A stretch of 64,000 nt of DNA from NCBI GenBank assembly GCA_965263035.1, contig OZ253580.1, positions 960,001 through 1,024,000 of the forward strand, written 5' to 3'. Position numbers and translations under genes: made by a program. Shown here piece after piece: positions 3,592-27,870 of the stretch. Below the pieces are notes generated by a model, which saw only the letters and a program-made list of their open reading frames with translations, was not told the DNA's origin and did not search any database. Source of the DNA: Acidobacteriota bacterium (GTDB lineage Bacteria; Acidobacteriota; UBA6911; RPQK01; JAJDTT01). Each line of letters opens with the position of its first letter. Position 1 is the stretch's first letter.

Positions 3592-3649
3592 ATGGATAGT
3601 TACGGATAATGGAATGTCTGGCATCGATATCTGAGGGAGGGACGAATCG

Positions 3650-4681: not shown

Positions 4682-4762
4682 TAGTGGCGAGTCACGCTGC
4701 CGACCACCGAAGTATCTTCTCATCTTCCCCACCTGTGATATTCGTCTGAGCCAAATTTCGGC

Positions 4763-6031: not shown

Positions 6032-6160
6032 TTCCAGCCCTAAAACGGGACCTCCGGATGGGACGTAGCTTGTCTGGGGAGGTCGCCAACGGGTTGCGCC
6101 CTAGAGGGTAGTTTCAGTATCGTGGCCATCATATAATTTATACATCGGAGGCGACGCGTC

Positions 6161-7342: not shown

Positions 7343-7359
7343 TGACGTGGAATCGTCTA

Positions 7360-7904
7360 CTAGCGGTGAGTTCTCGACTCGGTCACGGAGCTTCCTTCTT
7401 CCAGAACAATCAGTTGCCGGGGTTGGATGTTCTGAAGAGAATCGCGGACTCCGCTGGGCCAGGAAACAGTTACTTCCAGAGGGCCCTTGTACTCGCCCAA
7501 GCCAAAATGTGCCCGATAGTCACTGGCCGCAAGATAGCTTCCGGCGGACGTGACCTGGGCTAACAGGCGTTTCGGCCCGGCTTGGAGCTCCACAAGAGCT
7601 CCGAATCCGTTTCGGTTGGATTGCTTGCCGACCAGTCTTAATTGCAACCAGGGATTTCGGTTGGCCCCTCATTGCGTAGCAGTTGCGGGCTTCCACCACA
7701 TTTGCTGACCAGTACATCGAGGTCTCCATCATAGTCGTGATCGGCCCAAACCAGACCCCGGCTGACCTGAGGAACCTCCAACGCATTACCCCGCATGGAA
7801 GACACGTCCTGGAAGCGGGCGGCCACGTTCTCCAGGAGAACTCTCGGCTGCCGGAACGTTGCTCCGGTCCGAACCTTCTCGGCGTTGTCCAGGACGTGCC
7901 CGTT
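7360..7904 (-). pseudogene. C-terminal fragment of a CRTAC1-family (FG-GAP + ASPIC/UnbV) protein, frameshifted
   Basis: NGHVLDN...SRGLVWADHDYDGDLDVLV...LLRNEG, then in another frame WLQLRLVG...NRNGFGALV...SYLAASDYRAHFGLG...WPSG. One G is missing in the run at 7665-7668. Homologous to 33755-35404; the N-terminal two-thirds are absent. Confidence 0.85.
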
Positions 7905-7935
7905 TCGGAAATCACGAGCTCCCTTTCTCCAACCA

Positions 7936-9160: not shown

Positions 9161-9194
9161 GGCAACATCACCGTTCCGGACGAGATGCGCCAGA

Positions 9195-10523: not shown

Positions 10524-10528
10524 TCTAC

Positions 10529-10560
10529 TTCCCCTCTTCCCCTCTTCCCCTCTTCCCCTC
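10529..10560. repeat. Perfect tandem octamer (TTCCCCTC)x4
   Basis: Read directly; it is GAGGGGAA x4 on the minus strand, ending 5 nt before the ATG at 10523. Confidence 0.95.
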
Positions 10561-10852
10561 GCGACTTGAGTATCTTGGTGATTGTCGAGTGCCTGAGGGT
10601 CACCTCGAAACCTCGAGCCATCCGGGATTCGAGATTGATTATGGCCTTCGTCGGCAGAATTGCATAAATTATAAGGGCAGTCGTCGGCAAGTCAAGGAAC
10701 CCACGGCGAGGCCCTCAAGGGTTTGGCTATCGTTCTCAGCGGCGAAATCAAGAACCGCTATCCTTTCGTCCTAGGCAGTGGAGAGTACAACGGCGTTGCC
10801 CGCAAAGTCATGACGAATTGAGAATTCCGTGCTTTTTTTCCGGAGAAGAACG

Positions 10853-12646: not shown

Positions 12647-13000
12647 GCTTCTGTCCCAGATGCGGAACACTGAACTTGGGGAAAGGCAGTTATCGAGCGG
12701 TTGGTGACTCGTGAGAGCATTGACCGCTTGCCGCCGGTAGAGAGAGTTATGCTCAAACCCTCTTCAATTTGTGTGGCAATCCTTGTCGCCGTATCCCTGG
12801 TGTGGGCAGGGTCGCGAGATAAGGCCGTTCTCTTCGTGAATGAAATCATGACCGCCAGTGCCTTTACCAATGGGGCAATGGATGAAGATGGAGATTTTCA
12901 AGGCTGGATCGAACTCTACAACGGCGGAGAGAGTGCGATCGACCTGACTGGCTATTACCTTTCCAATGGGGATTATATCCCAAAGTCACAATTCGACCGG

Positions 13001-13180
13001 TCATTCGGTCTTGAACTTGAAGGGCCGAAGGAATGCCTTGCGGGCCTGTTGGAGAGACGATCCAGGCATATCAACCTCTTCCCTCAGTTCTTTGCGATTC
13101 GGTTGGTAGGACCGCTTGGGAAGGCGTATTGTGGCGGGTTTCTGTATCGTGTGGGCGGATCTTTGTTGACGGCGCTTCAT
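13001..13180 (-). CDS. Small basic 'SYQP' passenger protein of IS1595 copy 1 (59 aa; absent from the ORF track)
   Basis: MKRRQQRSAHTIQKPATIRLPKRSYQPNRKELREEVDMPGSSLQQARKAFLRPFKFKTE; similar in sequence and position to 15926-16141 and 16234-16416. Confidence 0.7.
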   Translation of the reverse strand: MKRRQQRSAHTIQKPATIRLPKRSYQPNRKELREEVDMPGSSLQQARKAFLRPFKFKTE

Positions 13181-13446
13181 GGGAGATCAGTCTCGCTCTT
13201 TTGCAGCCAAGGGCATTCCCCGCGAGAACCTGGGACCCCGTGTGGACACTATTCGATCCTTCCTGGGGAGGACACGTTCCTCCAGGTTTATGGCCGCCTT
13301 GGTATTCACGAAGTGGTGGTCCCGGCTGAACCTGCACGCAAAAATCTCATCACGCATCTCTTGGATCGGTTCAGGGACTCTGTTCTCGGCAGCAAGGGAT
13401 GATCTCGACAGGGTTCCTCCTTTCAGATCCAATCCAATCTGAGTAG

Positions 13447-13482
13447 AGGAACCGAGAGACTTTGGCGGGTGGCTCGGTTCCT
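13447..13482. other. Hairpin between the transposase and passenger ORFs of IS1595 copy 1
   Basis: Perfect 10-bp inverted repeat AGGAACCGAG/CTCGGTTCCT with a 16-nt spacer. Confidence 0.6.
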
Positions 13483-13519
13483 AACCTGATCTCAGTCTTA
13501 CCGATCCGGCTTTTTCAAG

Positions 13520-14515
13520 TCAACCCACTGCTGGTCTGGCTCCACTGTCCAGTCCGTTGTCTGCAATAAGTTCCGGGTACTTGATGCGCTTGCCGATCAT
13601 CCCGACAGCGACCATTCCCATCTGGTCTTCCGTGTCCGCTTCGCGGATGTTGTGACGGCCCGAGAATTCATTGACGTATTGGTGTAGGTGCTTGGGGCTC
13701 AGCTTGTGGAAGGTGCCCATGTGCGCCCTTTTCAGCATGGACCAAAAGCTCTCCACGCCATTGGTGTGAGCCTTGCCCCGGACGTATTCGCCAACTGAAT
13801 GCCGCACGGTTTCGTGGTTCGGGAGAGCGTGGTAAGTCAGGGCATCGTCCGTGTAGATCTTGGCGCCGGGTTCCATCTGCTCCATGATGAAGCGGCTCAT
13901 GGTTTCGCTCTTGACATTGGGGACAACTCTGGCAGAAACCTGCTTCGTGGGTCGGTCTTTGATGCCCGCCACAGCCGTCTTTCCCACAGATCCTCGACCT
14001 GTCAATTGCTTCCTCTTGGCCTTTGGCATGTTCTTCCGCTTACCGCCCCTATAGGTCTCATCAGCCTCTACCGGACCTTGAAACGTCCCGGTGCCGATCT
14101 CCGCGGCCTTGCGGAGCCGAGCCAGCATGAACCAAGCGGCTTTCTGGCCGATGCCCAGCTCTCGGTGCAGCTTCATGGAAGAAATGCCCTTGATGTTGGT
14201 GGTGAAGAGATAGCTGCCTACGGCCCAGACGCGATAAGGGAGCTTGGTGCTTTCCATGACCGTTCCCTTGCGGATGGAGAACATAGGCCGCTTTGGACAG
14301 TCCCGGCAACGGTGGGTCATGGTCTTGTGCTTGATGCCACTTTGGACGTTGAATGATCCGCAGTTGGGGCAGAACGGACCATCCGGCCAAACCTGCTCTT
14401 CCAGCCACTTTAAGGCCGCTTCGTCGTCCCGGAACTTGTCCGCAACTTGCAGCAGAGTGAGTCCTTTTCGGTGGGCTTTCCCAGGCGCTTTCTTCATCCC
14501 GTTTCCCTCTCTCAT
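13520..14515 (-). CDS. IS1595-family transposase (intact)
   Basis: Zn ribbon CPNCG...CRDC, HTH (SSMKLHRELG), catalytic VEADETY/IYTDD/HTNGVESFW. Confidence 0.95.
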   Translation of the reverse strand: MREGNGMKKAPGKAHRKGLTLLQVADKFRDDEAALKWLEEQVWPDGPFCPNCGSFNVQSGIKHKTMTHRCRDCPKRPMFSIRKGTVMESTKLPYRVWAVGSYLFTTNIKGISSMKLHRELGIGQKAAWFMLARLRKAAEIGTGTFQGPVEADETYRGGKRKNMPKAKRKQLTGRGSVGKTAVAGIKDRPTKQVSARVVPNVKSETMSRFIMEQMEPGAKIYTDDALTYHALPNHETVRHSVGEYVRGKAHTNGVESFWSMLKRAHMGTFHKLSPKHLHQYVNEFSGRHNIREADTEDQMGMVAVGMIGKRIKYPELIADNGLDSGARPAVG

Positions 14516-14855
14516 TGTGACTAAATAGTAACACGGAGGGGTGACAGAATCAAGCGTTTACGGAAGGAAATTGTGACTTTGGGATATAATCCCCTTTCCA
14601 ATGATCCTCAACAGCCCAGGAGGTGGAGATTCCCGGACGGCCGCGTTTCTCCTCAGGAGTTTCTGATGGTCTGGACGTCCGCCAAGAACAAGGTCGGAGC
14701 AAACGGAGAGCTGCACACCAATTTTCAACTGTCGGGTGCGGAGCCGGTTCTTCTCACCGCCCCTGACGGAAACACATTGATCGACTCGCTCCAGGCCCCG
14801 TCAGAAATCGACCGGGACGAATCCTACGGAAGACATCCTGACGGGCACGAGGATC

Positions 14856-15674
14856 TACTGTCCCTACTGCGGGGCCACCAATGTCCAGATTGGATGCAAG
14901 CATAAGACGATGCCGTTTCGTTGCCGTGAGAAGGAATGCGGAAAGCATTTCAGCATCAAGACCGGGACCTTCATGCAGTCAAGCAAGATCGGCTATCAGA
15001 ACTGGCTCTACGCCTTCTACCTGTTCGCCACGAATCTGAAGAGTGTTTCCAGCATGAAGCTCCACCGCGAGCTGGGCATCACGCAGAAGTCAGCCTGGCA
15101 CCTGGCACACCGGATTCGCCAGGCCTGGAACTTGGACCCGGAGGAGAGATTTTGGGGTCCGGTCGAGGTGGATGAGACTTGGTTTGGTGGCAAGCGGAAG
15201 AACATGCCGAAGAAGAAGCGGTCTCAGTTGAAGGGGCGCGGCCCGGTTGGGAATACCGCTGTCGTGGGCGTGAAAGACCGGAAGACCAACCGCGTGTCGG
15301 CTCAGGTTGTCGAGGACACGACCCAGGAGACACTCCAGGGATTCGTCCAGGATCGGATCGACCCGGACGCGGCGGTCTACACGGACGATTCCTCCTCCAA
15401 TGCATCGCTGGACAATCATGAGTCCGTCCGTCATTCCCAGTTGGAATACGTTCGGGGTTCGGTTCACACCAACGGCGTTGAGTCCTTCTGGTCGATGTTG
15501 AAACGGGCGTATATGGGCACCTTCCACCGGCTGTCAGAGCGTCATCTTCACCGCTACGTCGGCGAGTTCGCAGGACGCCACAATATGCGGGAACTGGGAA
15601 CGCTGGCTCAGATGTCTCTGGTCGCTGATCGGGCCATTGGGCAGCGGCTCCGGTACCAGGATTTGGTCAGTTGA
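14856..15674 (+). pseudogene. IS1595-family transposase lacking its N-terminal ~40 aa
   Basis: YCPYCG...RCREKEC, VEVDETW, VYTDD, HTNGVESFW; the start region present in copies 1 and 3 is missing. Confidence 0.85.
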
Positions 15675-15935
15675 ACCGGACTGAGGTGGCGGATTCCAGT
15701 GCCATCACATTCGTCTCGATAGACGAAATGACTACCTTCTCGGTCTTGGCATCAGGCCGAGTGAAATCCTGTTCAACGTCTGGACCAAGGTCGAGGTCTC
15801 AGAGCAACAAGCCGGGCGTCTTGTGAGGATGGCGGAAGGACGATCCGTTACCTTCAAGCTCACGAAGCGACCTGAGCAAATGCATCCGATCGAAGACCTT
15901 CCCCGCTGGGCAATAGGGCTGGAAAATGAGCAATA
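15671..15935 (+). pseudogene. Truncated cargo gene remnant of IS1595 copy 2 (possibly nuclease-like)
   Basis: TTG overlaps the transposase stop. After a frame break it reads GGGFQCHHIRLDRRNDYLLGLGIRPSEILFNVWTK...LVRMAEGRSVTFKLTKR...LENEQ*, overlapping the next ATG. The nuclease assignment is only from recalled resemblance. Confidence 0.45.
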
Positions 15936-16141
15936 GGAAGTCCACAGTTCGCAAGAATCCGAAATCCAGAACCGTAGAACTGGTCCATTCTTCTTACCAG
16001 CCGACGAAGGCGGAGAAGGAAGAGGAGTTCAATTTGAAGGTGCCGGGAGAGACCCCATTAGATCGAATGGGCAAGCTGGCGCGGGCAGTCCTCCGTCCCG
16101 TCAAACCCCGGTGGATCAGAAAGCCCAGGAACCGTCGTTAA
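15926..16141 (+). CDS. Small basic 'SYQP' passenger protein of IS1595 copy 2 (71 aa)
   Basis: TVELVHSSYQPTKAE...LARAVLRPV..RWI..PRNRR; the stop lies 8 nt before the TIR. Confidence 0.75.
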   Translation: MSNRKSTVRKNPKSRTVELVHSSYQPTKAEKEEEFNLKVPGETPLDRMGKLARAVLRPVKPRWIRKPRNRR

Positions 16142-16233
16142 TGCTTGCGTTTCGGGACTTTCGTATATAATCCCCAATAGAAGGGCACTACAAGGAAATG
16201 GGGATTATATACGAAAGTGCCGAAACCTGAGCA

Positions 16234-16416
16234 TTAACGCCGGTTCCGTGGCCGGTCTATCCATCTGATATTCACGGGCTGGACCAATGCACGGGCCAGC
16301 TCCTCGAAGTCTGCTTCCACGCGCATATCCTGTTCCAGTTCGGCCTTGGTCGGTTGGTAGGAATCCTTGACCAGTTCGATGGTGGGATGTTGGGGATTGT
16401 GTCTGGGTTTCTTCAT
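16234..16416 (-). CDS. Small basic 'SYQP' passenger protein of IS1595 copy 3 (60 aa)
   Basis: TIELVKDSYQPTKAELEQDMRVEADFEELARALVQPVNIRWIDRPRNRR; its ATG overlaps the cargo stop (ATGA). Confidence 0.75.
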   Translation of the reverse strand: MKKPRHNPQHPTIELVKDSYQPTKAELEQDMRVEADFEELARALVQPVNIRWIDRPRNRR

Positions 16417-16435
16417 GCGGCCCTCGGCATCCTAG

Positions 16436-18200
16436 CCCGGATATCTCATCAGAAAGATTGATAAAGGCCGCGTTTTCTGCTATAAGTGTTGTGTAATCAA
16501 TAACTTACAAAGCAGAAGGGACGCGACCTTATGACCGCAGAGTGTACCAGAATAAAGCTCAGATTTCAGGGCCTGGACGGACGGGATGTCGTGGGCCGGT
16601 TCGACGGCGGCGAGATCACCTCCGACGCCGGTGGCGTGCTCCTGCGCGAAGTGGAGCAGCGGACCCGGATTCTGGGTCGTCTGAGCGAATGCTTCACCGA
16701 CTATCGAGACTCGGATCGAGTCGAACACCCGGTGGAGGCGTTGATCAAACAGCGGGTGCTGGGGCTGTGCCTGGGCTACGAGGACCTCAACGACCACGAC
16801 GAGTTGTGCCGGGACCGGCTCTTGGCGCTGTTGTGTGATCGAGATGATCTGACGGGGGAGTTCCGGCGCGTGGAGTCGGATCGAGGCAAGCCGCTGGCAG
16901 GCAAGAGCACCCTGAACCGACTGGAGCGGACTCCGTTGGAGGGACCGGAGGGCGCGTACAAGAAGATCGTGGCCGACCCGGCGGGGATGGACGAGCTGCT
17001 GCTGGAGGTGTTTGTGGAAGCGCATCCGGAGCCCCCGGAGGAGGTGATCCTGGATGTAGACGCCACGGACGATCCGCTGCATGGGAAGCAGGAGGGACGG
17101 TTCTTCCACGGCTATTACAAACGCTACTGCTACCTGCCGCTGTACGTCTTCTGTGGGGAACACCTGTTGCGTGCGCGGCTGCGCACGGCGGATCGAGGCG
17201 CGGCCCACGGGGTGGTGGCGGAGTTGGAACCAATCGTGAGGCGGCTGCGTGAAGCGTGGCCCCAGGTGCGGATCACGGTTCGAGGGGACAGTGCCTTCTC
17301 CAACGACGAGTTGATGGTCTGGTGCGAGAAGGAAGGGATCGATTACGTCCTGGGGTTGGCGCAGAACGATCGGCTGAAGCGGAGGATCGCGACCCGGATG
17401 GAGACCGTCCGGCAGTTGCAGCGGGCGATCGGGAAGGCCGTGAGGCAGTTCCAGGAACTGCGCTATCAGACGCACAAGAGTTGGTCGTGCGAGCGCCGGG
17501 TGGTGGCGAAGGTGGAGCACCTGCCCCGGGGAAAGAACCCGCGATTCATCGTGACTTCGGTCCCGGTCCAGGAATGCGATGGGCGAAGATTGTACGAGGA
17601 GGTCTACTGCGCGCGGGGAGACATGGAGAATCGGATAAAGGAACAGCAGATGGGTCTGTTTGCGGACCGCACGTCGACCCGGAAGCTGGCGGGGAATCAA
17701 CTGCGGTTGTATTTCTCGGCATTCGCCTACGTGATGATGGAGACGTTGCGACGGGTGGGGCTGGCGGGGACGAAGCTGGCGCGGGCGCAGAGCTGGACCC
17801 TGCGGGTGAGATTGCTGAAGATCGGGGCACAGGTCCGGATCACCAGCCGCAAGGTCTGGTTGTCCTTTTCCGAGAGCTATCCGTATGCGGCGCTGTTGAG
17901 GACGGCTCTGACGCAAGTGCAAGCCCTCCCGCTTCGCTGTTAGCAACGGATGGAAAGAACTCTTTGGACGATGGCGACTTGGGAGTCCCCAGGATGGACT
18001 GCGCCCCGGAGTGGGCACCGGGTCGAGAGTCGTCGCTCAGAAGCGCAGGATGGGCGTCAAAAGGCTCTGGAGAAGCGCTGCATCTGGCCGTTGGTCGGCA
18101 CGTTCGAGCACGAAAACTGCCTCTTGAACTCGTATGGATAAAGAATCACCCAGACGACGGTTCAACTTCCGTTTATTGTTCTACTGATGAGAAATGCAGG
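16436..18200 (+). mobile_element. IS1380-family element, copy 1 (1765 bp)
   Basis: Imperfect TIRs CCCGGATATCTCATCAG / CCTGCATTTCTCATCAG; CTAG duplicated at 16432-16435 and 18201-18204. Confidence 0.95.
16531..17943 (+). CDS. IS1380-family transposase (intact)
   Basis: FDGGEITSDAG, GYEDLNDHD, LDVDATDDPLHGKQEG, RGDSAF, YCARGDMENRIKE. Confidence 0.95.
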   Translation: MTAECTRIKLRFQGLDGRDVVGRFDGGEITSDAGGVLLREVEQRTRILGRLSECFTDYRDSDRVEHPVEALIKQRVLGLCLGYEDLNDHDELCRDRLLALLCDRDDLTGEFRRVESDRGKPLAGKSTLNRLERTPLEGPEGAYKKIVADPAGMDELLLEVFVEAHPEPPEEVILDVDATDDPLHGKQEGRFFHGYYKRYCYLPLYVFCGEHLLRARLRTADRGAAHGVVAELEPIVRRLREAWPQVRITVRGDSAFSNDELMVWCEKEGIDYVLGLAQNDRLKRRIATRMETVRQLQRAIGKAVRQFQELRYQTHKSWSCERRVVAKVEHLPRGKNPRFIVTSVPVQECDGRRLYEEVYCARGDMENRIKEQQMGLFADRTSTRKLAGNQLRLYFSAFAYVMMETLRRVGLAGTKLARAQSWTLRVRLLKIGAQVRITSRKVWLSFSESYPYAALLRTALTQVQALPLRC

Positions 18201-18683
18201 CTAGGTTGCTTCCCCTCAAAGTAGTCTTCCGGCGTGTAGATTTGAATCTTGGGCAGGTCCATGAAGCGTCCGGCGTTGACGGCGGCATTTCTCATGCCGT
18301 TGGTCACTCTGTCTCGAAAGCAGGTGAAGATGCCGAGATCAGCTCCGGCCTGTTGACGTGCGCCGTTGAAGGCTTGGACGTGTCCGGGATTGGTAGAGCC
18401 GCCTTTGACCTGAGAAACGATGTCAATGAACCGGCCCTTGCGGATCGGGAGCCGTCCCACGCCGTCAATTCCGCCATCCCGTCTCTGGATTCGGTTCGGC
18501 TCCATACCGTCCACCAGAGCAGCAGCCCACCTCTCAAACCGGAATTTATCGATGCCGGCAAGCTCCTGAGCGTGTGTGATGGTATGGGGAAGGCCAATGT
18601 ATTGGGTGTGTTCCCAACGGATTCATCCGGGACATCCTCCCGCATGACTTCAAGGTGGTCTCCAAAGATCAGTCGATTTTCGT

Positions 18684-19634
18684 TCAACCCACCAAATCCT
18701 TGTAACGCAGCCGCTTTCCCACCATCCGGTCAGCGACCAGGGCCATTTGATCCAACGTGTCCATGCGCCTTAGGTTGTGACGTGCGGCAAACTCTCCAAC
18801 GTATCGGTCGGTGTGCTGTTCCGAGAAGTGGTGAAAGGTTCCGTGGTAACTCCGCTTCAACATGGACCAGAATGATTCGGCTCCGTTGGTGTGGCAGTTG
18901 CCTTTGACGTACTCCTGAAGAGAATGTCTGACCGTCTCGTGATGGACAAGCCGGCCGTAAGAGGTTGAATCGTCCGTGTAGATCTTGGCATCTTCTCCCA
19001 CGTGCTCCAAGACGAAACGGGAGAGGGTTTCAGACTTGGTGTCAGGGACGACTCGGGCCGACACTTGGTTGGAGGGGCGATCTTTGACGGCAGCCACGGC
19101 CGTCTTTCCAACGGCTCCACGTCCCTCCAGTTTGGCGCGTTTGGCCTTCGGCATATGCTTCCGCTTTCCGCCGAGATACGCCTCGTCAGCCTCGACCGGG
19201 CCGGAGAACAGGGCCATTCCAGTCAGGTTCAGACCTTTCCGTATCCGGTGAGCAAGGTGCCAAGCCGTCTTCTGTGTTACGTCCAGGTCACGATGCAGCT
19301 TCATGGAGGAAACGCTCTTGAGGCTGGTAGTAAGGAGGTAGGTCGCAAGCAACCAAGTCTGATAGCCGAGTTTGGAGGACTGCATAACCGTCCCGACCCG
19401 GACGCTGAACCGCTTGCCGCAATCGCGGCAACGATACGGCATGGAAGGATGCTTGGCTCCGGTCTGGACGTTGGTGGAGCCGCAATGGACGCAACAGACT
19501 TCCTCCGGCCACCGCTGCTTTATGAACCATTCCTCAGCGGCTTTATCGTCGGGAAATCTCTTGAAGAATCCGCGAAGTGAAAGTCCCTCTCGGAACGCCT
19601 TGCCGGGTGCCTTGTTCCGTGTCTCGTAACTCAT
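18684..19634 (-). CDS. IS1595-family transposase (intact), copy 3
   Basis: ATG 19634 after AGGAGG; CVHCG...CRDC, VEADEAY, IYTDD, HTNGAESFW. Confidence 0.95.
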   Translation of the reverse strand: MSYETRNKAPGKAFREGLSLRGFFKRFPDDKAAEEWFIKQRWPEEVCCVHCGSTNVQTGAKHPSMPYRCRDCGKRFSVRVGTVMQSSKLGYQTWLLATYLLTTSLKSVSSMKLHRDLDVTQKTAWHLAHRIRKGLNLTGMALFSGPVEADEAYLGGKRKHMPKAKRAKLEGRGAVGKTAVAAVKDRPSNQVSARVVPDTKSETLSRFVLEHVGEDAKIYTDDSTSYGRLVHHETVRHSLQEYVKGNCHTNGAESFWSMLKRSYHGTFHHFSEQHTDRYVGEFAARHNLRRMDTLDQMALVADRMVGKRLRYKDLVG

Positions 19635-20326
19635 TGCATCCTCCTGACTTACAAGACATATTCTATAGGAAAGTACCGGCATTATCAACCCCTACGGGCA
19701 ACTTTTTCGGCACTTTCGTATATAATCCCCAAGGAAATCCTAGCACCATTAGCACGCAGAAAGGACGAGGATAGCTGAGCAAGTTGACGAGATTCGGCGA
19801 TAATTCTTCAGCCAGCCGCAACGGCCCTCGCGAGCCCAGCCTATTGGCGGCGGTTATCCCGGGTCGACAAACCAGAATTCCGAGAGTTCTCACGCTGAAG
19901 CTGACGGCTACTTCAAATATGGAGGGCCAGTGCACCACGCCGCGGTCAGCTCCCAGAAATCTCCTCGCCTCTTCAGCCCGATATTTTGTCCCTGAGTGCC
20001 GCCGTATTTCGCGGTAACTCCCTCGTATCTGGCTCCTATCTGGCTGGTGTCTTTTTCTCTGTCCAAGACATTAACATTCGATGAATCAGCAACCTGAGTG
20101 CAGGCTCTGCGGAACGAATCTTCCAAATTTTGACCCAGCGCAGGCATATTCATGTCTCCCTGCCCTCAACCGTCTCTCGCCGGCTGCCTTTTGCCCGACC
20201 GCGCCGCGCTCCGGAAGCCAGTATGGTCAGCCCGGCTGCCCGTTTCAGAAACGTTCGTCGATTTCGCATTTCGTCCGCTCCAATCACCAGGGGAGCTTTT
20301 ACACAAGACCACGGCCAGCTCCCCGG

Positions 20327-21655: not shown

Positions 21656-21836
21656 GATTTCCTCCCGTTCGAGAAGTCCAAGGATGAATCTTACAGCAGA
21701 GATCCAACCGGGAACAGGGCTATGGCCAGCGACACGGCTAGCCCGGATATCTCAACAGAAAGATTGATAAAGGCCGCGTATTCTGCTATAAGTGTTGTGG
21801 TATCAATAACTTACAAAGCAGAAGGGACGCGACCTT

Positions 21837-23250
21837 ATGACCGCAGAGTGTACCAGAACAAAGCTCAGATTTCAGGGCCTGGACGGACGGGACGTCGTGG
21901 GCCGGTTCGACGGCGGCGAGATCACCTCCGACGCCGGTGGCGTGCTCTTGCGTGAAGTGGAGCAGCGGACCCGGATTCTGGGTCGGCTGAGCGAATGCTT
22001 CACCGATCATCGGGATCCGGATCGGATCGAACACTCCGTCGTGGCGTTGATCAAACAGCGGGTGCTGGGGCTGTGCCTGGGCTACGAGGATCTCAACGAC
22101 CACGACGAGTTGTGCCGGGACCGGCTCCTGGCGCTACTGTGCGACCGGGACGACCTGACGGGGGAGTTCCGGCGCGTGGAGTCGGATCGAGGCAAACCGC
22201 TGGCAGGCAAGAGCACCCTGAACCGACTGGAGCGGACCCCGTTGGAGGGACCGGAGGGCGCGTACAAGAAGATCGTGGCCGACCCGGCGAGGATGGACGA
22301 GCTGCTGCTGGAGGTGTTTGTGGAAGCGCATCCGGAGCCCCCGGAGGAGGTGATCCTGGATGTAGACGCCACGGACGATCCGCTGCATGGGAAGCAGGAG
22401 GGACGGTTCTTCCACGGCTATTACAAACGCTACTGCTACCTGCCGCTGTACGTCTTCTGTGGGGAACATCTGTTGTGTGCGCGGCTGCGCACGGCGGATC
22501 GAGGCGCGGCCCACGGGGTGGTGGCGGAGTTGGAACCGATCGTGAGGCGGCTGCGTGAAGCGTGGCCCCAGGTCCGGATCACGGTTCGAGGGGACAGTGC
22601 CTTCTCCAACGACGAGTTGATGGTCTGGTGCGAGAAGGAAGGGATCGATTACGTCCTGGGGTTGGCGCAGAACGATCGGCTGAAGCGGAGGATCGCGACC
22701 CGGATGGAGACCGTCCGGAAGTTGCAGCAGGCGATGGGCAAGGCCGTGAGGCAGTTCCAGGAACTGCGCTATCAGACGCACAAGAGTTGGTCCTGCGAGC
22801 GCCGGGTGGTGGCGAAGGTGGAGCACCTGCCCCGGGGAAAGAACCCGCGGTTCATCGTGACTTCGGTGCCGGTCCAGGAATGCGAAGGGCGAAGATTGTA
22901 CGAGGAGGTCTACTGCGCGCGGGGAGAGCATGGAGAATCGGATAAAGGAACAGCAGATGGGTCTGTTTGCGGACCGCACGTCGACCCGGAAGCTGGCGGG
23001 GAATCAACTGCGGTTGTATTTCTCGGCATTCGCCTACGTGATGATGGAGACGTTGCGACGGGTGGGGCTGGCGGGGACGAAGCTGGCGCGGGCGCAGAGC
23101 TGGACCCTGCGGGTGAGATTGCTGAAGATCGGGGCACAGGTCCGGATCACCAGCCGCAAGGTCTGGTTGTCCTTTTCCGAGAGCTATCCGTATGCGGCGC
23201 TGTTGAGGACGGCTCTGACGCAAGTGCAAGCCCTCCCGCTTCGCTGTTAG
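21837..23250 (+). pseudogene. IS1380 transposase with a +1 frameshift
   Basis: GGAGAGCATG versus GGAGACATG in copy 1 (extra G at about 22928) splits YCARGD/MENRIKE. Confidence 0.85.
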
Positions 23251-23494
23251 CAACGGATGGAAAGAACTCTTTGGACGATGGCGACTTGGGAGTCCCCAGG
23301 ATGGACTGCGCCCCGGAGTGGGCACCGGGTCGAGAGTCGTCGCTCAGAAGCGCAGGATGGGCGTCAAAAGGCTCTGGAGAAGCGCTGCATCTGGCCGTTG
23401 GTCGGCACGTTCGAGCACGAAAACTGCCTCTTGAACTCGTATGGATAAAGAATCACCCAGACGACGGTTCAACTTCCGTTTATTGTTCTACTGA

Positions 23495-25492
23495 GTAGAG
23501 TCGAGGAGAGGCGCGACGGCCGTAGGTGGTAGGGAGTCGCTGTTGCCGGCGGCTTTCGCCCTCATGCCGGTGCCTCAATCTCCACCGTGACCCCGTTTCC
23601 TCTCCCCGCTCATCGAACCGGACGTGCGCTACTAACGCATCCGGCTCTCGGACGAGATCATACGCGCGCCCACGGAAAGCTGGCCGTTCGCGGACCAAGA
23701 CGAGTGAGCTCCCACTCCTTCCAGAGTCGCTTGTCCGGGAAGCGCACCGTCTTCCCGGCCCTCACCTTGTGCTTGCGGCTCAGCCACTGGCGCAGCCGCC
23801 GGGTCGCGTGCCGATCGATCGTCGCATAAGCGGGACTCACCTGACCCAACGAGAAGTAGTTCGCCCAACCGTTCAGAAGCCGGTTGAGGCGTCCCACGAC
23901 TCGCTCGGGTTCCAGGAGTCCATAGCGTCTCTCGGTCAACGCGCTCACCCTGCGGCAGAGGCTCTGAACGCTCGCCGGGCTCGGGCGCGTCCCAATGTAG
24001 GCTCGCCCCGTATCCCGGCGGTAGTTGCGCCCAATCCGGTAGCCGAGGAACTCCAGCGGTTCCTCCGGCACCCGCACCTCTCGGGTCTTCTCCGCGTTCA
24101 ACGCCAGCTTCAGACGCTTCACCAAATCCTCGACCGCCGTCCGCATGATCGCGGCCGGAGCTTGGCCCAGGACCACAAAGTCGTCTGCGTAGTTGACGAT
24201 TTCCGCCTTGAAGCGCCGAGCGTAGCCCAGTCCCTTCCAGCCCAGAATGAAGCGTCGCATGTACAAGTTGCTCAGCAGCGGTGAGATGGGCGCCCCTTGC
24301 GGGGTCCCTTTCCTCTCTTGCCGCGCCCGGGTCGTTCGGCGTCGTCCGCCGCAGCCGTCCTCTTCCTCCACCGCCATCTCCAACCAAACCTTGATCCAAC
24401 CCACCACCCGCCCATCACTGATGCGGCGGGCCACGGACTTGATCAGTTGGGCATGGGGGATCTGGCCGAAGTAGTCCGTCAGGTCGGCGTCCACCACCTC
24501 GCGGTGGCCCCGGTTCAGCAGTCGGTGCACGTGCTTGACGGCATCGCCCGCGCTCCGGCCCGGCCGATAGGCATATTGTTCCGGGGCCAGATCGGCTTCG
24601 AAGATCGGCGACAACACCAACATTGCCGCCGTCTGCGCCACCCGATCCCGCACACACGGAATGCCCAAAGGCCGGAACTTCCCGCGTTGCTTCTTCGGGA
24701 TCAGAACCTGCCGCACCGCGTTGGGCCGGTAGGTCCCTTCCTTCAGGTCCCGCGCCAGTTCCCCGAGCCACCCGTCCACCCCCGACGACTCGATGTCGGC
24801 GATCGCCTCCCCGTCCACCCCGGCCGACCCGCCGTTGCGGCGGACCTCCTGCCAGGCCACACGGAGCACGTCCAACCGCCACACCTTGTCGCACAGCGAG
24901 TAGAACCGGAAGCCCGGAGCCTCCTTCGATGCTCGCATGGAGCGTCTTCCGGAGTCTCTGAACTTTCTCTGAAGCTACTAGGTTCTCACCAGTCTTCACG
25001 TCCTTTTCCCCGTCCAACGCGGTTCTCGAACCAAGGCCCCTTCCCTCCACCGGCGTTACCCGGCTTCTCCAGTACTACGGGCCTCTCCGCCACCCCGACG
25101 GCCCAGGCTGGCCCTCACGGGTTCCCGGTTGACGCGTGCCACGCCACCGGCGGGGCTTCCCGTGTTGCTGCTGTCTCCCTCTTGTCCACATGCCACCGCC
25201 ATTACCCCGGCGGAACCGGCCGGTGCTTCCGTCGCTCGCTTCCCGGCCGCTGGCAGCCTTCGTGCGTTTCTCAGGCGGGTCGGCTTCCGCATTACCCGTT
25301 TCGAGGCCTGCTCAGCGTTCGCTCAAGCTACGGCCTGCGGACTCGCTGAGTCGCCTAAAGCGACCCTTTGACATCGGAGTGCTTCAGTCCATATCGTTGC
25401 CTCCATGAACCGCTCCGACTGCTACCGGCTGGAGCGACAGTTGCCGGGCGGGTTTCGCACCCGCTGGGAGAAAGCGCCTTTCCACGGCGCAC
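23495..25492 (-). mobile_element. Group II intron (1998 nt)
   Basis: 5' end GTGCG at 25492; domain V GAGCCGGATGCGTTAGTAGCGCACGTCCGGTTC; long domain VI ending CTCGACTCTAC at 23495; RT ORF inside; removing it rejoins the IS1380 TIR. Confidence 0.93.
23658..24999 (-). CDS. ltrA: Group II intron reverse transcriptase/maturase without endonuclease domain; frameshift near the N-terminus
   Basis: RPLGIPCVRDRVAQ, DADLTDYF, GTPQGAPISPLLSN, YADD, FLGY, GWANYF. The natural start GTG 24999 (MKTGENL...KVQRLRKTLHA) is out of frame with the RT body at about 24933. Confidence 0.85.
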
Positions 25493-25505
25493 TGAGATAT
25501 CCGGG

Positions 25506-26027
25506 CTAGGTTCGCCCGCCGTCATCGGAGACAGACAGCAAGCTGCTCATCAGTTCCTGAGGGTAGGCTTTCGTACTGATGTATCCGGTGGCGAAAAGCC
25601 GGCCTTCCCGTTCGAAGGCGCTGCCGTCCAGTTTGACCCGCGCGATCCAGTTTGTCCGCGGTATCGGGCTGGGAAACATATCCACGGCCCAGGGCAGGTC
25701 CATCATTCGAGTTCCAGCCGGTTCCATGACCACCCGATTCCCTTCCCGCTCAAAGCGGGAGTAGGTCGCATGCAGGTTGTGCCGGTCCTCCGGATCCGCC
25801 TGGTAGAAGTGGGAAGGTATGGCCAATAGGGAACCGTCGTCCCGTGGGAGGTAGATCCAGGGTTGATGGTCGGGGATCAGGTCGTTTCGATGCCCCCAGC
25901 TCCTACCCCCGTCCCTGGAGATCTGGAAGGCTGTAAGGTAAGTCGGATTTTCGTTGGTGTCGGCCACCAGCGAGTAGGTCACCATCAGCTCTCCGGTGGG
26001 GAATCTTGCCCGGATTCTCCGATCCAC
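25506..26027 (-). pseudogene. Fragment of an Asp-box propeller (close paralogue of 9195-10523), N-terminally deleted and cut at the IS1380 end
   Basis: ELMVTYSLVADTNE...PDHQPWIY...FYQADPEDRHNLHA...PRTNWIAR...SDDGGRT*; no signal peptide and no C-terminal half. Confidence 0.85.
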
Positions 26028-26061
26028 CGGGCCTCGGCGCCTTTTCCCTTGCCCCTCGGCT

Positions 26062-27870
26062 CTAGGCGCCTGAGACAAGCGAGACACGGACCTGCAGCAA
26101 CTCAACGGGCACGGAGGGCTCCCCTCCCCGTCGAGGATCGACCGTCAGCTCCAAGGCGTTGTTCCCTTTTCTCAGAGTAAGCGGATCCACTTTGAAGCTC
26201 AGCCAGCCGGCTTCTTTTTGAAAACCCAGGCCGTACCCAGCTTCCGTGTACTGCCTGCTGGTTTCCGGGGAAATGTACCCTTTCGGTGAAGACGGTTGCG
26301 GATTGGAGATCGGCCGGCCGTTGAGTTTCCAGGTGGCCCGTCCCCCGTCGGTTGCGTCTTTCCATTGGGTCAGCACGGTCGCTGTCGCCACGGAATCAGG
26401 CTCATCAACGATGGTCAAGGCGAACCGCACGCTATTCGACCCCGACTGGGTGGTCAACACCCGGGGCAACTGGCCGGGTATATTCCGCGTCTTGGAAGGC
26501 CGATCCGGGTCGATGGCATAGAGCTTGTTCTTGCCTACGAGGGCCTTTGGGTCCCCTACACGAGGCACCGTACCGTAGTCTTTTGGATCGGTGGGGCCGT
26601 GATGGGTATGCCAATCAAAGAGGTAGATTCCGTCTACTCCCTCTTCCCAAAACCGGTGGGAGGCTGCATCAACCGCGGTGTAGTCAGAGGCGACATCGTC
26701 TTCCAGCTCGGGATCGCGATGGTCAAACTTGGGCCGCCCGGTGCGAAAAGGTTGCACGAGACGGTCGAGACAGCCGTAGACCTGGATACCGTATCGATGT
26801 CCGAGTCGGACCCACTCTTGGATAGGGATGGAATAAGGCATCAGTCCGGAACCGCCTATGATGAGATCCACCCAGTGGTTGCGAGCCCAGGTCTCCGGGT
26901 CCAGTCCGGCCGACAGGCTCAGCTGGATGCTGTCCGGAGGGCGGACGGCGAGTAGAATCGGATGTCCTCGCCTTTCCCCGAAGTGGTCCAGTGTCTGACG
27001 GACCTGATGAACGAAGTCGTTCATGATGGGCGTGTTCCGGCGCTGCTCCCCGAGCTTGAAGAACATGCTGTGCCGGCACCAGTCGAGTTCCACTCCATCC
27101 AGGTCATAGCGGCGGCAGGCTCCTTCCACCACCTCCAGGTATCGGGCCCGGACCTCGGGGAGCGCATAGTTGTAGCCCGCCCAGAAGCGGGCGTCGCGAG
27201 AAGCCATTCCGTTGCGTTTGATGACGTCTGCCAGCGGATGATCTTCCTCGGCCTGACGGCGCAACTCGACGATCTCTTGGGGGTCGTAAAGGTCCTGTTT
27301 CTTCTCGATTTCACTGTAGCGTTGAATCCAGGGCAGGGTTTTCTTTTCCCAGTGTTCCCTCGAAATAAAACCCAACATCAGTTCAGGATGTTTGAGCCTG
27401 AATGGGGGCCAGTAGGAGGCCTTTGGAGGGAACAGGGAGGCGTGGATGTCATTCATTCGAATGGAGTAAAAAAACTCCATTCCATTCTGGCGCGCGAAGT
27501 CGACTGCATGCCTGACGGGATTCGGACCCAGGACTTCGATGTGTTCTTGTGGGAACTCCCAGTCGGGCTCGTTGACATGGGCACAGTAGAAAATGCTGGC
27601 TACTTCCGTCCCCTTCACATAGCTGAGCGTGTTCGCCAGGAACTTGCCGGGTGATTTCAGGGGATTCGGCCACTTACCGCCTGCGTAGGCGGGCTGCAGC
27701 ATGTCACTGCCGTCGTTGTTCCAAAGAACGGGACGCTTTCGCCGCCTGGCCTTCGCTCTCTTAGCAGCCGGACTGGAGCCCAGAACGGCAGGGGCGCCGC
27801 CGTGGGCAGAAACGGAGGAAAGCCAAGTTGCGGCAGTCATTTGTTTCAGAAACGTTCGCCGATTCTTCAT
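26062..27870 (-). CDS. Tat-exported DUF187/GHL10-like putative glycoside hydrolase, paralogue 2
   Basis: MKNRRTFL Tat signal; WNNDGSD, IRMNDIH, DGVELDWCRH, DGIYLFDWHTHHGP. Confidence 0.75.
   Translation of the reverse strand: MKNRRTFLKQMTAATWLSSVSAHGGAPAVLGSSPAAKRAKARRRKRPVLWNNDGSDMLQPAYAGGKWPNPLKSPGKFLANTLSYVKGTEVASIFYCAHVNEPDWEFPQEHIEVLGPNPVRHAVDFARQNGMEFFYSIRMNDIHASLFPPKASYWPPFRLKHPELMLGFISREHWEKKTLPWIQRYSEIEKKQDLYDPQEIVELRRQAEEDHPLADVIKRNGMASRDARFWAGYNYALPEVRARYLEVVEGACRRYDLDGVELDWCRHSMFFKLGEQRRNTPIMNDFVHQVRQTLDHFGERRGHPILLAVRPPDSIQLSLSAGLDPETWARNHWVDLIIGGSGLMPYSIPIQEWVRLGHRYGIQVYGCLDRLVQPFRTGRPKFDHRDPELEDDVASDYTAVDAASHRFWEEGVDGIYLFDWHTHHGPTDPKDYGTVPRVGDPKALVGKNKLYAIDPDRPSKTRNIPGQLPRVLTTQSGSNSVRFALTIVDEPDSVATATVLTQWKDATDGGRATWKLNGRPISNPQPSSPKGYISPETSRQYTEAGYGLGFQKEAGWLSFKVDPLTLRKGNNALELTVDPRRGGEPSVPVELLQVRVSLVSGA

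What the first reader, a model, noticed from the sequence alone, without database searches (positions are those of the whole stretch)
23495..25492. Group II intron homing into the terminal inverted repeat of IS1380
Seen: the intron sits exactly 13 nt inside the IS end, antisense to the transposase. A candidate EBS1, TGAGAAA (25267-25273, minus strand, in domain I), is the perfect complement of TTTCTCA, the sequence preceding the equivalent junction in the intron-free right TIR of copy 1 (18188-18194). Established: group II introns often home into IS elements (e.g. RmInt1 in ISRm2011-2) through EBS-IBS pairing. Inference: this intron targets the non-coding end rather than the transposase ORF, so both TIRs of every copy are potential sites and copy 1 is an empty target. 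The intron could hitch-hike on or immobilise the IS.
Basis: partly seen in the sequence, partly recalled or inferred. Interest (0 to 1): 0.7.

Follow-up and report, generated by a model that had tools for sequence, protein, structure and literature searches.

The report
Group II intron in IS1380 end
A mobile self-splicing intron sits 13 bases inside the end of a jumping gene (an IS1380-family element), guided there by RNA-DNA base pairing; this way of living has been described before for a different intron, so it is a solid new example and not a new principle.

Summary
Confirmed. Window 25492->23495 (minus strand) is a 1998-nt group II intron: GTGCG 5' end, Rfam D1-D4 and D5-D6 matches, and an intact 426-aa RT/maturase with no endonuclease domain. 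It lies exactly 13 nt inside the right terminal inverted repeat of an IS1380-family element, antisense to the transposase. The IS tip was fixed from 4-bp target duplications in 16 genomic copies.

The proposed EBS1, TGAGAAA, is correct. Across 58 intron/site rows from relatives (22 distinct EBS1 7-mers), this loop covaries with the last 6-7 nt of the 5' exon: 86% of cells paired, against 34-41% for slid controls.

The genome holds four 99%-identical intron copies. Three sit at the same position in three different IS1380 copies. One is an ectopic look-alike site upstream of the 23S rRNA gene.

Twelve canonical right ends, including window copy 1, are empty perfect targets. All 14 canonical left ends are also empty.

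Related introns sit 12-13 nt inside MITE ends or in a TrwC relaxase gene. TAG/TAA is enriched at -16/-15.

IS inverted repeats as intron targets are already published (RmInt2 in ISRm17). This RT is only 32% identical to RmInt2. It is a new member of a known kind. Splicing, hitch-hiking and IS immobilisation remain untested.

The parts
23495..25492 (-). Group II intron, 1998 nt (GTGCGCC...TCGACTCTAC)
   Evidence: Sequence. RF02003 scores 90.5 bits against a gathering score of 49 at 25466-25323. RF00029 scores 35.1 bits, E 1.2e-4, at 23649-23495. The boundaries match those of the relatives.
23658..24938 (-). Intron-encoded reverse transcriptase/maturase, 426 aa, intact, no endonuclease domain
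   Evidence: PF00078 RVT_1 115 bits and PF08388 GIIM 58 bits, with nothing else. TIGR04416 scores 316.8 against a cut-off of 300. The YADD motif is readable.
25267..25273 (-). EBS1, TGAGAAA (intron positions 220-226)
   Evidence: It covaries with exon positions -1 to -7 in 58 rows: 86% of cells paired, and 93-100% at -1 to -5 with 4-6 pair types each. RNAalifold predicts the same pairing independently.
25294..25298 (-). Candidate EBS2, CGGGT (intron positions 195-199). Pairs with GCCCG at exon -14..-10, which is the last base of the target duplication plus the first four bases of the IS.
   Evidence: Duplex search. Covariation is weaker, 53-59% of cells paired in a fixed register, with one strongly covarying pair at 47 of 58.
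23495..23649 (-). Domains V and VI. D6 is unusually long (about 115 nt). The candidate branch A at 23501 lies 7 nt from the 3' end.
   Evidence: RF00029 match covering model positions 1-77 with a large insertion in D6. MFE fold. The branch A is inferred, not shown.
25493..25505 (-). Terminal 13 bp of IS1380 copy 2 (CCCGGATATCTCA read on the minus strand). This is the proximal 5' exon and carries IBS2 and IBS1.
   Evidence: It is the inverted repeat of the left end 21742-21754 (I10). The tip was defined from the target duplications.
25506..25509 (.). CTAG target-site duplication, right side of copy 2 (the partner is 21738-21741)
21742..23494 (+). Body of IS1380-family copy 2 up to the intron. 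The transposase frame is broken by one extra base near 22928, so ORF 21837-23498 reads through out of frame.
   Evidence: PF13701 matches only profile positions 4-332 of 435. A 1-nt spacing shift separates the repeat families. Alignment difference at IS position 1187.
16436..18200 (+). IS1380-family copy 1, 1765 bp, without an intron. Transposase at 16531-17943 (470 aa, intact). CTAG duplications at 16432-16435 and 18201-18204.
   Evidence: NF033539 scores 387 bits against a cut-off of 180. PF13701 scores 494 bits. Ends.
18188..18200 (-). Empty target: right end of copy 1 (CCTGCATTTCTCA on the minus strand). IBS1 TTTCTCA pairs 7 of 7 with EBS1. The insertion point would be between 18188 and 18187.
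16436..16448 (+). Left end of copy 1 (CCCGGATATCTCA|TCAG). It is identical to the 5' exon, and to the first four 3'-exon bases, of the window intron. It is unoccupied.
   Evidence: (I7)

Best explanation
An endonuclease-less, IIB-like bacterial group II intron retrohomed into the right terminal inverted repeat of an IS1380-family insertion sequence, on the strand antisense to the transposase.

How the target is read:
- EBS1 (TGAGAAA) pairs with IS positions 7-13.
- EBS2 (CGGGT) pairs with the last base of the 4-bp target duplication plus IS positions 1-4.
- A distal TA(G/A) at about -16..-14 coincides with the CTAG-type duplication that this IS makes. It is probably read by the intron protein.

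The whole RNA-read part of the target is therefore the 13-bp IS tip. A good site is created each time the IS inserts.

Because the protein has no endonuclease, insertion most likely occurs by reverse splicing into the lagging-strand template at a replication fork, as shown for RmInt1.

What is shown: the anatomy, the pairings, and repeated independent insertions at the same site.
What is inferred: the protein's reading of TAG, the replication-fork route, current splicing and mobility, and any effect on the IS.
For: Intron identity.

IS family and tip: NF033539 scores 387 bits. In 14 of 16 copies the 4-bp flanks are identical on both sides.

Repeated homing:
- The own genome holds four full-length-equivalent copies at 99% identity.
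- Three sit at the same position, 13 nt from the right tip, in IS copies that are 97%, 99% and 94% identical to copy 1 and carry different tip sequences. The fourth is not in an IS.
- A 91%-RT relative in another genome sits at the same position, antisense to an 87-93% identical transposase.

EBS1:
- 67 rows gave 55 distinct intron/site pairs with 22 distinct EBS1 7-mers. The mean is 6.0 of 7 paired, against 3.1 of 7 when an EBS1 is matched to the sites of other lineages.
- Over all 19 pairs of the structure tested (the EBS1 and EBS2 helices and two local stems), 85.1% of cells are paired, against 67.3% in shuffles (0 of 500 reach it) and 34-41% when slid.
- RNAalifold finds the pairing unprompted.
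- The stem closing the EBS1 loop covaries: GC 50, AU 4, UA 2, GU 2.

Distal motif: 26 of 51 site families have TAG or TAA starting at -17..-15. Only 6 such hits fall at the other 15 start positions.

Orientation: five of five copies or fragments away from the terminus point the same way as the replication fork inferred from GC skew.

Precedent for the mechanism: RmInt1 has IBS2 at -9..-13 and a critical T-15, and inserts into the lagging-strand template (PMC4075523 passages; PMC8914252 abstract as listed).
Against: - At this locus IBS1 is TATCTCA, with one clash at -6.
- All own-genome copies lack 2 of the 4 base pairs of the stem that closes the EBS1 loop in relatives (alignment).
- Occupancy is low: 12 of 13 canonical right ends and all 14 canonical left ends are empty.
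- Only two of the four copies (the window copy and c3) keep an intact RT. The copy near the 23S gene has a 1-nt deletion and c4 is split by a 2225-bp insertion.
- EBS2 pairing is only 53-59% in any fixed register.
- No EBS3 was identified. The first 3'-exon base is T, T, A or C for the same intron.
- The orientation test has n = 5, and the origin is inferred from a weak GC skew.
- The favourable-orientation count among IS copies is not significant. By my count, 3 of 3 occupied copies fall among 11 of 16 favourable ones, p about 0.29.
Confidence: 0.88

Rival explanations
1. The IS-intron association spread by transposition of an IS+intron composite (hitch-hiking), not by repeated homing. The displaced 13-bp tip would still serve as the right end.
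For: The 13-bp tip stays intact beyond the intron in all three IS-intron units, and each unit is flanked by CTAG-type 4-mers. From memory, with no call behind it: ISEcp1, an IS1380-family member, can use displaced right-end-like sequences.
Against: The intron copies are 99% identical, while their host IS copies are 97%, 99% and 94% identical to copy 1. The host tips also differ: CCCGGATATCTCA, CCTGCATTTCTCA, CCCCCATTTCTCA. One copy is outside any IS. No two loci share the same composite. The CTAG flanks are uninformative because CTAG is the usual target.
Confidence: 0.07
2. The window junction is not a simple insertion into this IS's original right end. The 13-nt 5' exon would come from a left end, for example through recombination between an intron in a left end and one in a right end.
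For: Copy 2 is identical to copy 1 over the 571 nt before the intron. It then differs at 3 of the 13 nt beyond the intron, and those 3 changes make the tip identical to the left end. A truncated, 91%-identical intron also abuts a left-type tip, CCGGGATATCTCA.
Against: No intron sits in any of the 14 canonical left ends, and no reciprocal product (right-type tip | intron | left interior) exists in the genome. An alternative fits equally well: copy 2 was a divergent IS with symmetric ends (45 differences in its first 1187 nt), and its interior was later converted by canonical copies up to the intron, which blocks conversion of the tip (inference).
Confidence: 0.2
3. The window copy is a fossil. 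It homed in the past but no longer splices or moves, and it simply inactivates a dead IS.
For: The host transposase is frameshifted. The stem closing the EBS1 loop is weakened in all own-genome copies. There is a -6 mismatch with its exon. Two of four copies have broken RT genes.
Against: The RT ORF of the window copy is intact, with YADD and the maturase domain. The four copies are 99% identical at different sites, which indicates recent movement with this same loop stem. Between the window copy and the others, positions 30 and 44 changed together (C-G to T-A), keeping a D1 stem.
Confidence: 0.25

Closest known systems
RmInt2, class D group II intron of Sinorhizobium meliloti GR4, which targets the inverted repeats of ISRm17 (PMC4615759; PMC5894124; passages read)
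   Same: - An endonuclease-less intron whose natural sites are the inverted repeats of an insertion sequence.
- Recognition by EBS1, EBS2 and distal positions read by the protein.
- Several copies per genome.
- The idea that two inverted ends give one site on each replication strand.
   Different: - The RT is only 32% identical to RmInt2, so this is a different lineage.
- The IS is of the IS1380 family. My tblastn of the transposase found nothing in the 1.5-kb flanks of four RmInt2 loci. I did not establish the family of ISRm17.
- Here only right ends are occupied.
- I could not see Fig. S1 of PMC4615759, so I cannot compare the distance of the RmInt2 site from the IS tip.
RmInt1 in ISRm2011-2 (class D; PMC4075523 passages; PMC5894124 passages)
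   Same: - An endonuclease-less intron living in an IS.
- Same layout of the target: IBS2 at -9..-13, IBS1 at -1..-7, and a critical distal T at -15. Here the values are -10..-14, -1..-7 and T-16/A-15.
- Preference for the lagging-strand template.
   Different: - RmInt1 sits in ISRm2011-2. That this site lies inside the IS and not at its tip is my recollection; no passage that I read states it.
- The RT is 32% identical.
Group IIE/IIF introns (PMC3753933, passages read)
   Same: - A small ribozyme: about 717 nt here without the ORF, against 450-700 nt reported.
- No endonuclease domain.
- A clear covarying EBS2.
- The paper notes long, highly structured D6 stems in IIF introns, and D6 here is about 115 nt.
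- The RT is closer to the class E remnant S.me.I4 (38% over residues 67-288) than to class D.
   Different: No labelled IIE or IIF reference sequence was available to me, so class membership is not established. The best plasmid-borne relatives are only 45-55% identical and carry no class label.
IStrons (group I intron fused to an IS; PMC4227781, abstract only)
   Same: An intimate pairing of a self-splicing intron with a DNA transposon.
   Different: An IStron is a single chimeric element in which the IS provides mobility. Here two autonomous elements are nested, and the intron arrives by its own retrohoming.

Membership tests
Bacterial ORF-containing group II intron | 5' GUGYG and conserved domain I-IV ribozyme core | tested here: met
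   GTGCG at 25492-25488. RF02003 scores 90.5 bits against a gathering score of 49.
Bacterial ORF-containing group II intron | Domain V hairpin and domain VI with a bulged branch A near the 3' end | tested here: inconclusive
   RF00029 matches full length (1-77) and ends at 23495, but at 35.1 bits, below its gathering score of 40 (E 1.2e-4), because D6 carries a large insertion. The branch A at 23501 is inferred from the fold.
Bacterial ORF-containing group II intron | Intron-encoded protein with RT and maturase (X) domains in domain IV | tested here: met
   RVT_1 and GIIM. TIGR04416 scores 316.8 against a cut-off of 300.
Bacterial ORF-containing group II intron | EBS1-IBS1 pairing with the 5' exon | tested here: met
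Bacterial ORF-containing group II intron | Self-splicing / lariat formation | not testable with these tools
   Only assembled contigs of RNA runs could be laid, and no contig joined 23494 to 25493. This says nothing either way.
Endonuclease-less intron lineages (classes C, D, E, F and kin) | No D/En domain after the maturase domain | tested here: met
   The protein ends at residue 426, with GIIM at 324-392 and no further Pfam or NCBIfam domain.
Class D (RmInt1/RmInt2 group) | RT clusters with class D proteins, including their class-specific C-terminal signature | tested here: not met
   32% identity to RmInt1 (6 loci) and RmInt2 (4 loci) over residues 14-395, while unlabelled plasmid relatives reach 45-55%. 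No tree with a labelled reference set was built.
Class C (IIC) | No EBS2; sites after terminator hairpins or attC | tested here: not met
   A covarying EBS2 is present, and the sites are IS or MITE tips and a relaxase gene.
IS1380 family | Transposase of the IS1380 equivalog family | tested here: met
   NF033539 scores 387.1 bits against a cut-off of 180; PF13701 scores 494 bits.
IS1380 family | Short terminal inverted repeats starting CC and 4-5 bp target duplication (family features recalled from ISfinder, not from a call) | tested here: met
   The ends are CCCGG... and CCTGC..., matching at 14 of 17 positions. There is a 4-bp duplication in 14 of 16 copies.
IR-targeting introns in the manner of RmInt2 | Intron copies lie within the inverted repeats of an IS | tested here: met
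   Three IS copies here plus L031.
IR-targeting introns in the manner of RmInt2 | Both the left and the right repeat are used | tested here: not met
   None of the 14 canonical left ends and neither variant left end is occupied in this genome. In a related lineage both ends of a MITE are used: 7 of 10 loci at one end, 2 at the other, and 1 with an unrelated 3' flank.

The most novel reading that the evidence does not exclude
This is not one intron in one IS. It may be a widespread intron clade (RT 70-91% identical, found in Acidobacteriota, Proteobacteria, Spirochaetia and other MAGs) whose target architecture is tuned to the junction that TAG-preferring inverted-repeat transposons create when they insert. 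A protein-read TA(G/A) would fall on the target duplication, EBS2 on the first 3-4 bases of the element, and EBS1 on bases 6-13. Lineages then retarget by EBS changes from one IS or MITE family to another, so the clade tracks transposon tips. By splitting the tip from the rest of the end, the intron may act as a natural brake on those transposons, or as a passenger of them.
Probability: 0.35. Interest if true: 0.65.

Novelty: new member of a known kind. Interest (0 to 1): 0.45.

Why it matters
The finding gives a second, evolutionarily independent case of a group II intron that lives in transposon inverted repeats. It also comes with an unusually rich natural retargeting series: 22 EBS1 variants on one conserved scaffold. 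That series is useful for learning the targeting rules of an endonuclease-less intron outside class D.

If the clade-wide reading holds, it shows how one selfish element can specialise on the insertion junctions of another. That bears on how introns persist without harming the host, and on whether they restrain or ride on IS elements and MITEs.

It changes no principle. IS-resident introns, and specifically IR-targeting introns, are already in print.

Tried and rejected
- Single-sequence MFE folding of the 5' 560 nt. It placed most of TGAGAAA in a loop, but such a fold of a large ribozyme is not trustworthy. I relied on comparative data instead.

- Internal IBS1 mimic. Three own-genome copies read TTTCTCA at intron positions 21-27. 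This region (ATTCCTCAG) is conserved whatever the EBS1 is, so I rejected it as coincidence.

- EBS3/IBS3. The first 3'-exon base varies (T, T, A, C) for the same intron, and I found no partner. Left open.

- EBS2. A column-by-column scan gave one strong pair only. Two fixed registers gave 58.6% and 53.4% pairing. The register appears to shift by one base between lineages that sit 12 or 13 nt from the tip.

- IS1380 in relatives. tblastn of the window transposase against the 80 related loci hit only L031.

- Ungapped TIR-plus-duplication test. It confirmed a matching duplication in 7 of the 10 loci of one MITE group. It missed the second MITE group, whose repeat has a 1-nt indel; that group was seen by eye. 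It gave nothing clear for the other sites.

- ORFs downstream of other sites. They were not transposases, except an IS256-type one in L033.

- Class assignment. I compared the RT with RmInt1, RmInt2 and the S.me.I4 remnant and with plasmid records. I read passages of PMC3552965, PMC3753933 and PMC4424553. The class stays unresolved between E-like and F-like.

- Expression and splicing. One search for runs and one laying of contigs from three RNA runs and one other run.
  - No contig joined 23494 to 25493.
  - Contigs that leave the IS at 23494 continue into the canonical intron-free tip of other IS copies.
  - Contigs on the flank stop at 25505/25506, the repeat boundary.
  - None of this speaks for or against splicing.

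- Promoter and terminator scan of 25300-26300. No minus-strand promoter-like site and no terminator-like site. The ORFs upstream on the minus strand have no Pfam family. Read-through transcription of the intron is therefore only a possibility.

- Literature. Searches found no paper on a group II intron in IS1380 ends or in MITE ends. One search returned only the RmInt2 paper. The Thiomargarita paper concerns a group I intron and a MITE.

Supplements were not requested; Fig. S1 of PMC4615759 and the supplementary tables of PMC7306698 may hold IR positions and intron-in-transposase lists that I could not see.
Full report
WHAT IS THERE

On the minus strand, window 25492->23495 is a 1998-nt group II intron.
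- It begins GTGCGCC and ends TCGACTCTAC.
- Rfam's group-II-D1D4-4 model matches 25466-25323 at 90.5 bits, against a gathering score of 49.
- The D5-D6 model RF00029 matches 23649-23495 over its full length and ends exactly at the proposed 3' end. It scores 35.1 bits, just under its gathering score of 40 (E 1.2e-4), because D6 carries a roughly 100-nt insertion.
- Domain IV holds an intact 426-aa ORF (24938-23658) with RVT_1 and the group II maturase domain and nothing after it. It passes NCBI's group II RT/maturase equivalog model, 316.8 against 300.
- A bulged A seven bases from the 3' end (23501) is the likely branch point (fold; inference).

THE HOST ELEMENT AND THE '13 NT'

The window holds two copies of an IS1380-family element.
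- Copy 1 (16436-18200) encodes an intact 470-aa transposase: NF033539 at 387 bits against a cut-off of 180, and PF13701.
- Copy 2 (21742-23494, plus 25493-25505) is the one that carries the intron. Its transposase is frameshifted by one extra base near 22928.

The genome in which the window lies holds 14 copies at 97-100% identity and two variant copies at 93-94%; the other 8 of the 24 matches are fragments. I lined up both ends of all 16.
- In 14 of them the four bases on the two sides are identical.
- In four of these the flanks are not CTAG (ATAG twice, CTAA, TTAG). This fixes the true tips at CCCGGATATCTCA (left) and CCTGCATTTCTCA (right, read inward).

IS THE EBS1 REAL?

A scan of one genome per species with the RT protein returned 169 relatives, of which the best 80 were kept. 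Their RTs are 70-91% identical and they come from Acidobacteriota, Proteobacteria, Spirochaetia and other MAGs. The 5' boundary could be placed in 66 of the 80 loci, all starting GTGCGCCG. The 3' boundary could be placed in 69, all ending CGACTCTAC.

Aligned, domain I shows a conserved frame, GACCCGCC-[7 variable bases]-ACG-GGGAAGGC. The variable 7-mer is where TGAGAAA sits.
- I dropped three tandem or odd rows (L091, L096, L098). That left 67 rows, which gave 55 distinct intron/site pairs with 22 different 7-mers.
- On average 6.0 of 7 positions pair with the last 7 exon bases. The figure is 3.1 of 7 when a 7-mer is matched with the sites of other lineages.
- On a 58-row alignment (A1) the IBS1-EBS1 helix is 86% paired. 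Positions -1 to -5 are 93-100% paired with 4-6 pair types each, position -6 is 74% paired and position -7 is 50% paired.
- Over all 19 pairs of the structure tested (this helix, the EBS2 helix and two local stems), 85.1% of cells are paired, against 67.3% in shuffles (0 of 500 reach it) and 34-41% when slid by 1-3 columns.
- RNAalifold, given the same alignment with no hint, pairs exon columns 15-20 with the same loop.
- The loop is closed by a 4-bp stem whose inner pair covaries: GC 50, AU 4, UA 2, GU 2.

A CANDIDATE EBS2

CGGGT (25298-25294) can pair with GCCCG at -14..-10. That is the last base of the duplication plus the first four bases of the IS. Its covariation is weaker, at 53-59% of cells in a fixed register, with one pair at 47 of 58. 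The register seems to differ by one base between lineages.

REPEATED HOMING, NOT ONE ACCIDENT

The own genome has four full-length-equivalent intron copies at 99% identity, a 322-nt fragment at 91% and a 110-nt fragment at 85%. Their 5' exons are:

| Copy | 5' exon |
|---|---|
| window | CTAG-CCCGGATATCTCA |
| c4 | CTAG-CCTGCATTTCTCA |
| c3 | CTAA-CCCCCATTTCTCA |
| c2 | GTTA-CCTGTATTTCTCA |
| fragment | CTAG-CCGGGATATCTCA |

- The window copy, c4 and c3 sit at the same position in three different IS copies, which are 97%, 99% and 94% identical to copy 1.
- For c3 the true 3' exon is seen only after a second IS1380-family element. That element inserted one base before the intron's 3' end, with a CTCTA duplication.
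- c2 is not in an IS. It lies 163 nt upstream of the only 23S rRNA gene hit in the genome, on the same strand. The site merely resembles the IS tip.
- A 91%-RT relative in another genome (L031) sits at CTAG-CCGAAATTTCTCA, antisense to an 87-93% identical transposase.

The intron copies are more alike than their host IS copies, and the host tips differ. These are therefore separate homing events, not copies of one composite.

EMPTY SITES AND THE TWO ENDS

A pattern search of the genome found 58 tip-like 13-mers.
- Of 13 canonical right ends (CCTGCATTTCTCA|TCAGTAGAAC), 12 are empty, including window copy 1 at 18188-18200.
- All 14 canonical left ends are empty. This holds although the left end plus its first four inner bases is identical to the 5' exon and first four 3'-exon bases of the window intron.
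- It is seen in a related lineage (next section).

AN ODDITY OF THE WINDOW COPY

Copy 2 differs from copy 1 at 45 positions in its first 1187 nt and at none in the next 571 nt up to the intron. It then differs at 3 of the 13 nt beyond the intron, and those three changes make the tip identical to the left end. Two readings fit:
- a divergent IS with symmetric ends, whose interior was later converted by canonical copies as far as the intron;
- recombination with an intron that once sat in a left end.

I cannot decide between them.

THE WIDER CLADE

In relatives the same scaffold carries other EBS1 and EBS2 sequences and sits in other places.

- MITE group 1 (10 loci from three genomes). The intron lies 12 nt inside the inverted repeat of MITEs of roughly 70-220 bp (CAGCCCGTGGTG...CCACGGGCTG).
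  - A matching 4-bp duplication is present in 7 of the 10 loci.
  - Both ends of the MITE are used: 7 loci at one end, 2 at the other, and 1 (L107) with an unrelated 3' flank.
  - One of these genomes holds 57 uninterrupted copies of the site, against 1 for the reversed control pattern.
- MITE group 2 (6 loci). The intron lies 12-13 nt inside GGACAGTGATCGA...TCGTCACTGTCC MITEs flanked by TTAG.
- Relaxase lineage. The intron lies antisense in the 5' part of a TrwC relaxase gene (L056: PF08751, 275 bits).
- The remaining sites are unresolved.

Across 51 site families, 26 have TAG or TAA starting at -17..-15 (16 at -16, 9 at -15, 1 at -17). Only 6 such hits fall at the other 15 possible start positions. 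The motif also appears at the relaxase sites. It is therefore probably read by the intron protein and is not merely the footprint of transposon duplications (inference).

HOW IT MOST LIKELY WORKS

The protein has no endonuclease. The best-studied such intron, RmInt1, reverse-splices into the lagging-strand template at replication forks (PMC8914252 abstract as listed; PMC4075523 passages). Its target layout is like the one found here: IBS2 at -9..-13, IBS1 at -1..-7 and a critical T-15.

Cumulative GC skew puts the origin near 2.85 Mb and the terminus near 5.8 Mb. On that basis the window copy, c3, c4 and both fragments (5 of 5) point the way the fork moves. c2 lies at the terminus and is uninformative. 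This is a small sample on a weak skew.

Whether the window copy is transcribed is unknown. No terminator-like or minus-strand promoter-like site lies just upstream, and the upstream ORFs have no known family.

WHAT IS KNOWN

Introns living in mobile elements are common (PMC7306698, passages). The specific strategy of using IS inverted repeats is published for RmInt2 in ISRm17. The authors point out that the two repeats double the number of sites and put one on each replication strand (PMC4615759 and PMC5894124, passages).

The present RT is 32% identical to RmInt1 and to RmInt2, and 38% identical to a class E remnant on the same plasmids. The best plasmid-borne relatives are 45-55% identical. 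It is therefore not class D. The small ribozyme and the long structured D6 recall the description of IIF introns (PMC3753933, passage), but I could not place it in a class. My searches found no paper on IS1380 ends or MITE ends as group II intron targets.

VERDICT

- The finding is a new member of a known kind. It has a worthwhile extension, a clade that appears to track the tips of TAG-duplicating transposons, which is suggestive but not established.
- Splicing, present mobility and any effect on the IS are untested.

Noticed in passing
Own genome, L002:1501-3497 (outside the window); the 23S rRNA gene starts at L002:3661: One intron copy (c2) sits 163 nt upstream of the only 23S rRNA gene hit in the genome, on the same strand. 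The non-IS site (GTTA-CCTGTATTTCTCA) pairs with EBS2 and its flanks over 10 bp and with EBS1 over 7 bp. No 16S rRNA or tRNA was found in the 2.5 kb upstream. Its RT has a 1-nt deletion at intron position 562. If transcribed with the rRNA, this copy could be a very active source of ribozyme RNA.
   Followed up: partly
Own genome, L125 (2001 nt directly after intron copy c3): A second, distinct IS1380-family element (490-aa transposase, NF033539 at 234 bits; ends CCCAGATTATTCAT) inserted one base before the 3' end of intron copy c3, duplicating CTCTA. The nesting is an IS inside an intron inside an IS.
   Followed up: partly
Own genome, L124 (2225 nt inside intron copy c4, at intron position 1206/1207): A 2225-bp insertion with imperfect inverted ends splits the RT gene of copy c4. 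Its 412-aa and 292-aa ORFs match no Pfam family, and the 412-aa ORF matches no NCBIfam family.
   Followed up: partly
window 14910-19731: IS1380 copy 1 lies between perfect 27-nt inverted repeats (16199-16225 and 19705-19731) that enclose an IS1595-type transposase (18684-19688, minus strand, PF12762). A second IS1595-type ORF is at 14910-15674, with a related repeat at 16150-16177. Copy 1 seems to be nested in an IS1595-family element, in a patch rich in ISs.
   Followed up: partly
window 25020-25524 versus 23700-25019: In three metatranscriptome runs the summed contig word depth over the intron's 5' ribozyme part is about 250-19,500 (X15, X16) and 170-1,000 (X17). Over most of the ORF it is about 13-140 (X15), 0-136 (X16) and 0-14 (X17). 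In the unlabelled run X1 the contrast is only about 5-fold. Contig depths sum related introns and cannot rank parts of a gene, so this is only a hint that the folded D1-D3 RNA accumulates.
   Followed up: no
L056-L061 and L102 (Alphaproteobacteria MAG): A sister lineage of the intron (EBS1 ATGAATA) is inserted antisense near the 5' end of a TrwC relaxase gene, at sites that also carry TAG at -16.
   Followed up: partly
L096:664-1528 and L098:2074-2938: An 865-nt, apparently ORF-less, intron of the same family ends one base before the 5' end of a full-length intron. The two seem to sit one base apart in the same target (…TTGTCGTTGATC|mini-intron|A|intron). L091 shows an intron whose 5' exon is the 3' end of another intron, a tandem arrangement.
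   Followed up: no
Own genome, e.g. 1762107(+)/1762235(-), 1124123, 1345145, 3062710, 4519026, 6034166: Seven unoccupied CCCGCATTTCTCA tips follow the pattern of the IS end with a perfect IBS1. Two of them face each other about 140 bp apart, like a MITE. Only one is preceded by CTAG. This is compatible with the distal TAG or the 3' exon mattering for homing.
   Followed up: no
window 23653-24487: In two RNA runs of one study, one contig each skips 833 nt inside the RT gene. The flanks on the short side are only 18-23 nt, so this may be an ORF-deleted intron variant or an assembly artefact.
   Followed up: no
window 25506-25508: The TAG of the right-hand CTAG duplication is the stop codon of a 199-aa minus-strand ORF (25506-26105) that has no Pfam family. 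If that ORF is a real gene, the IS inserted at its stop codon, and read-through would transcribe the intron.
   Followed up: partly
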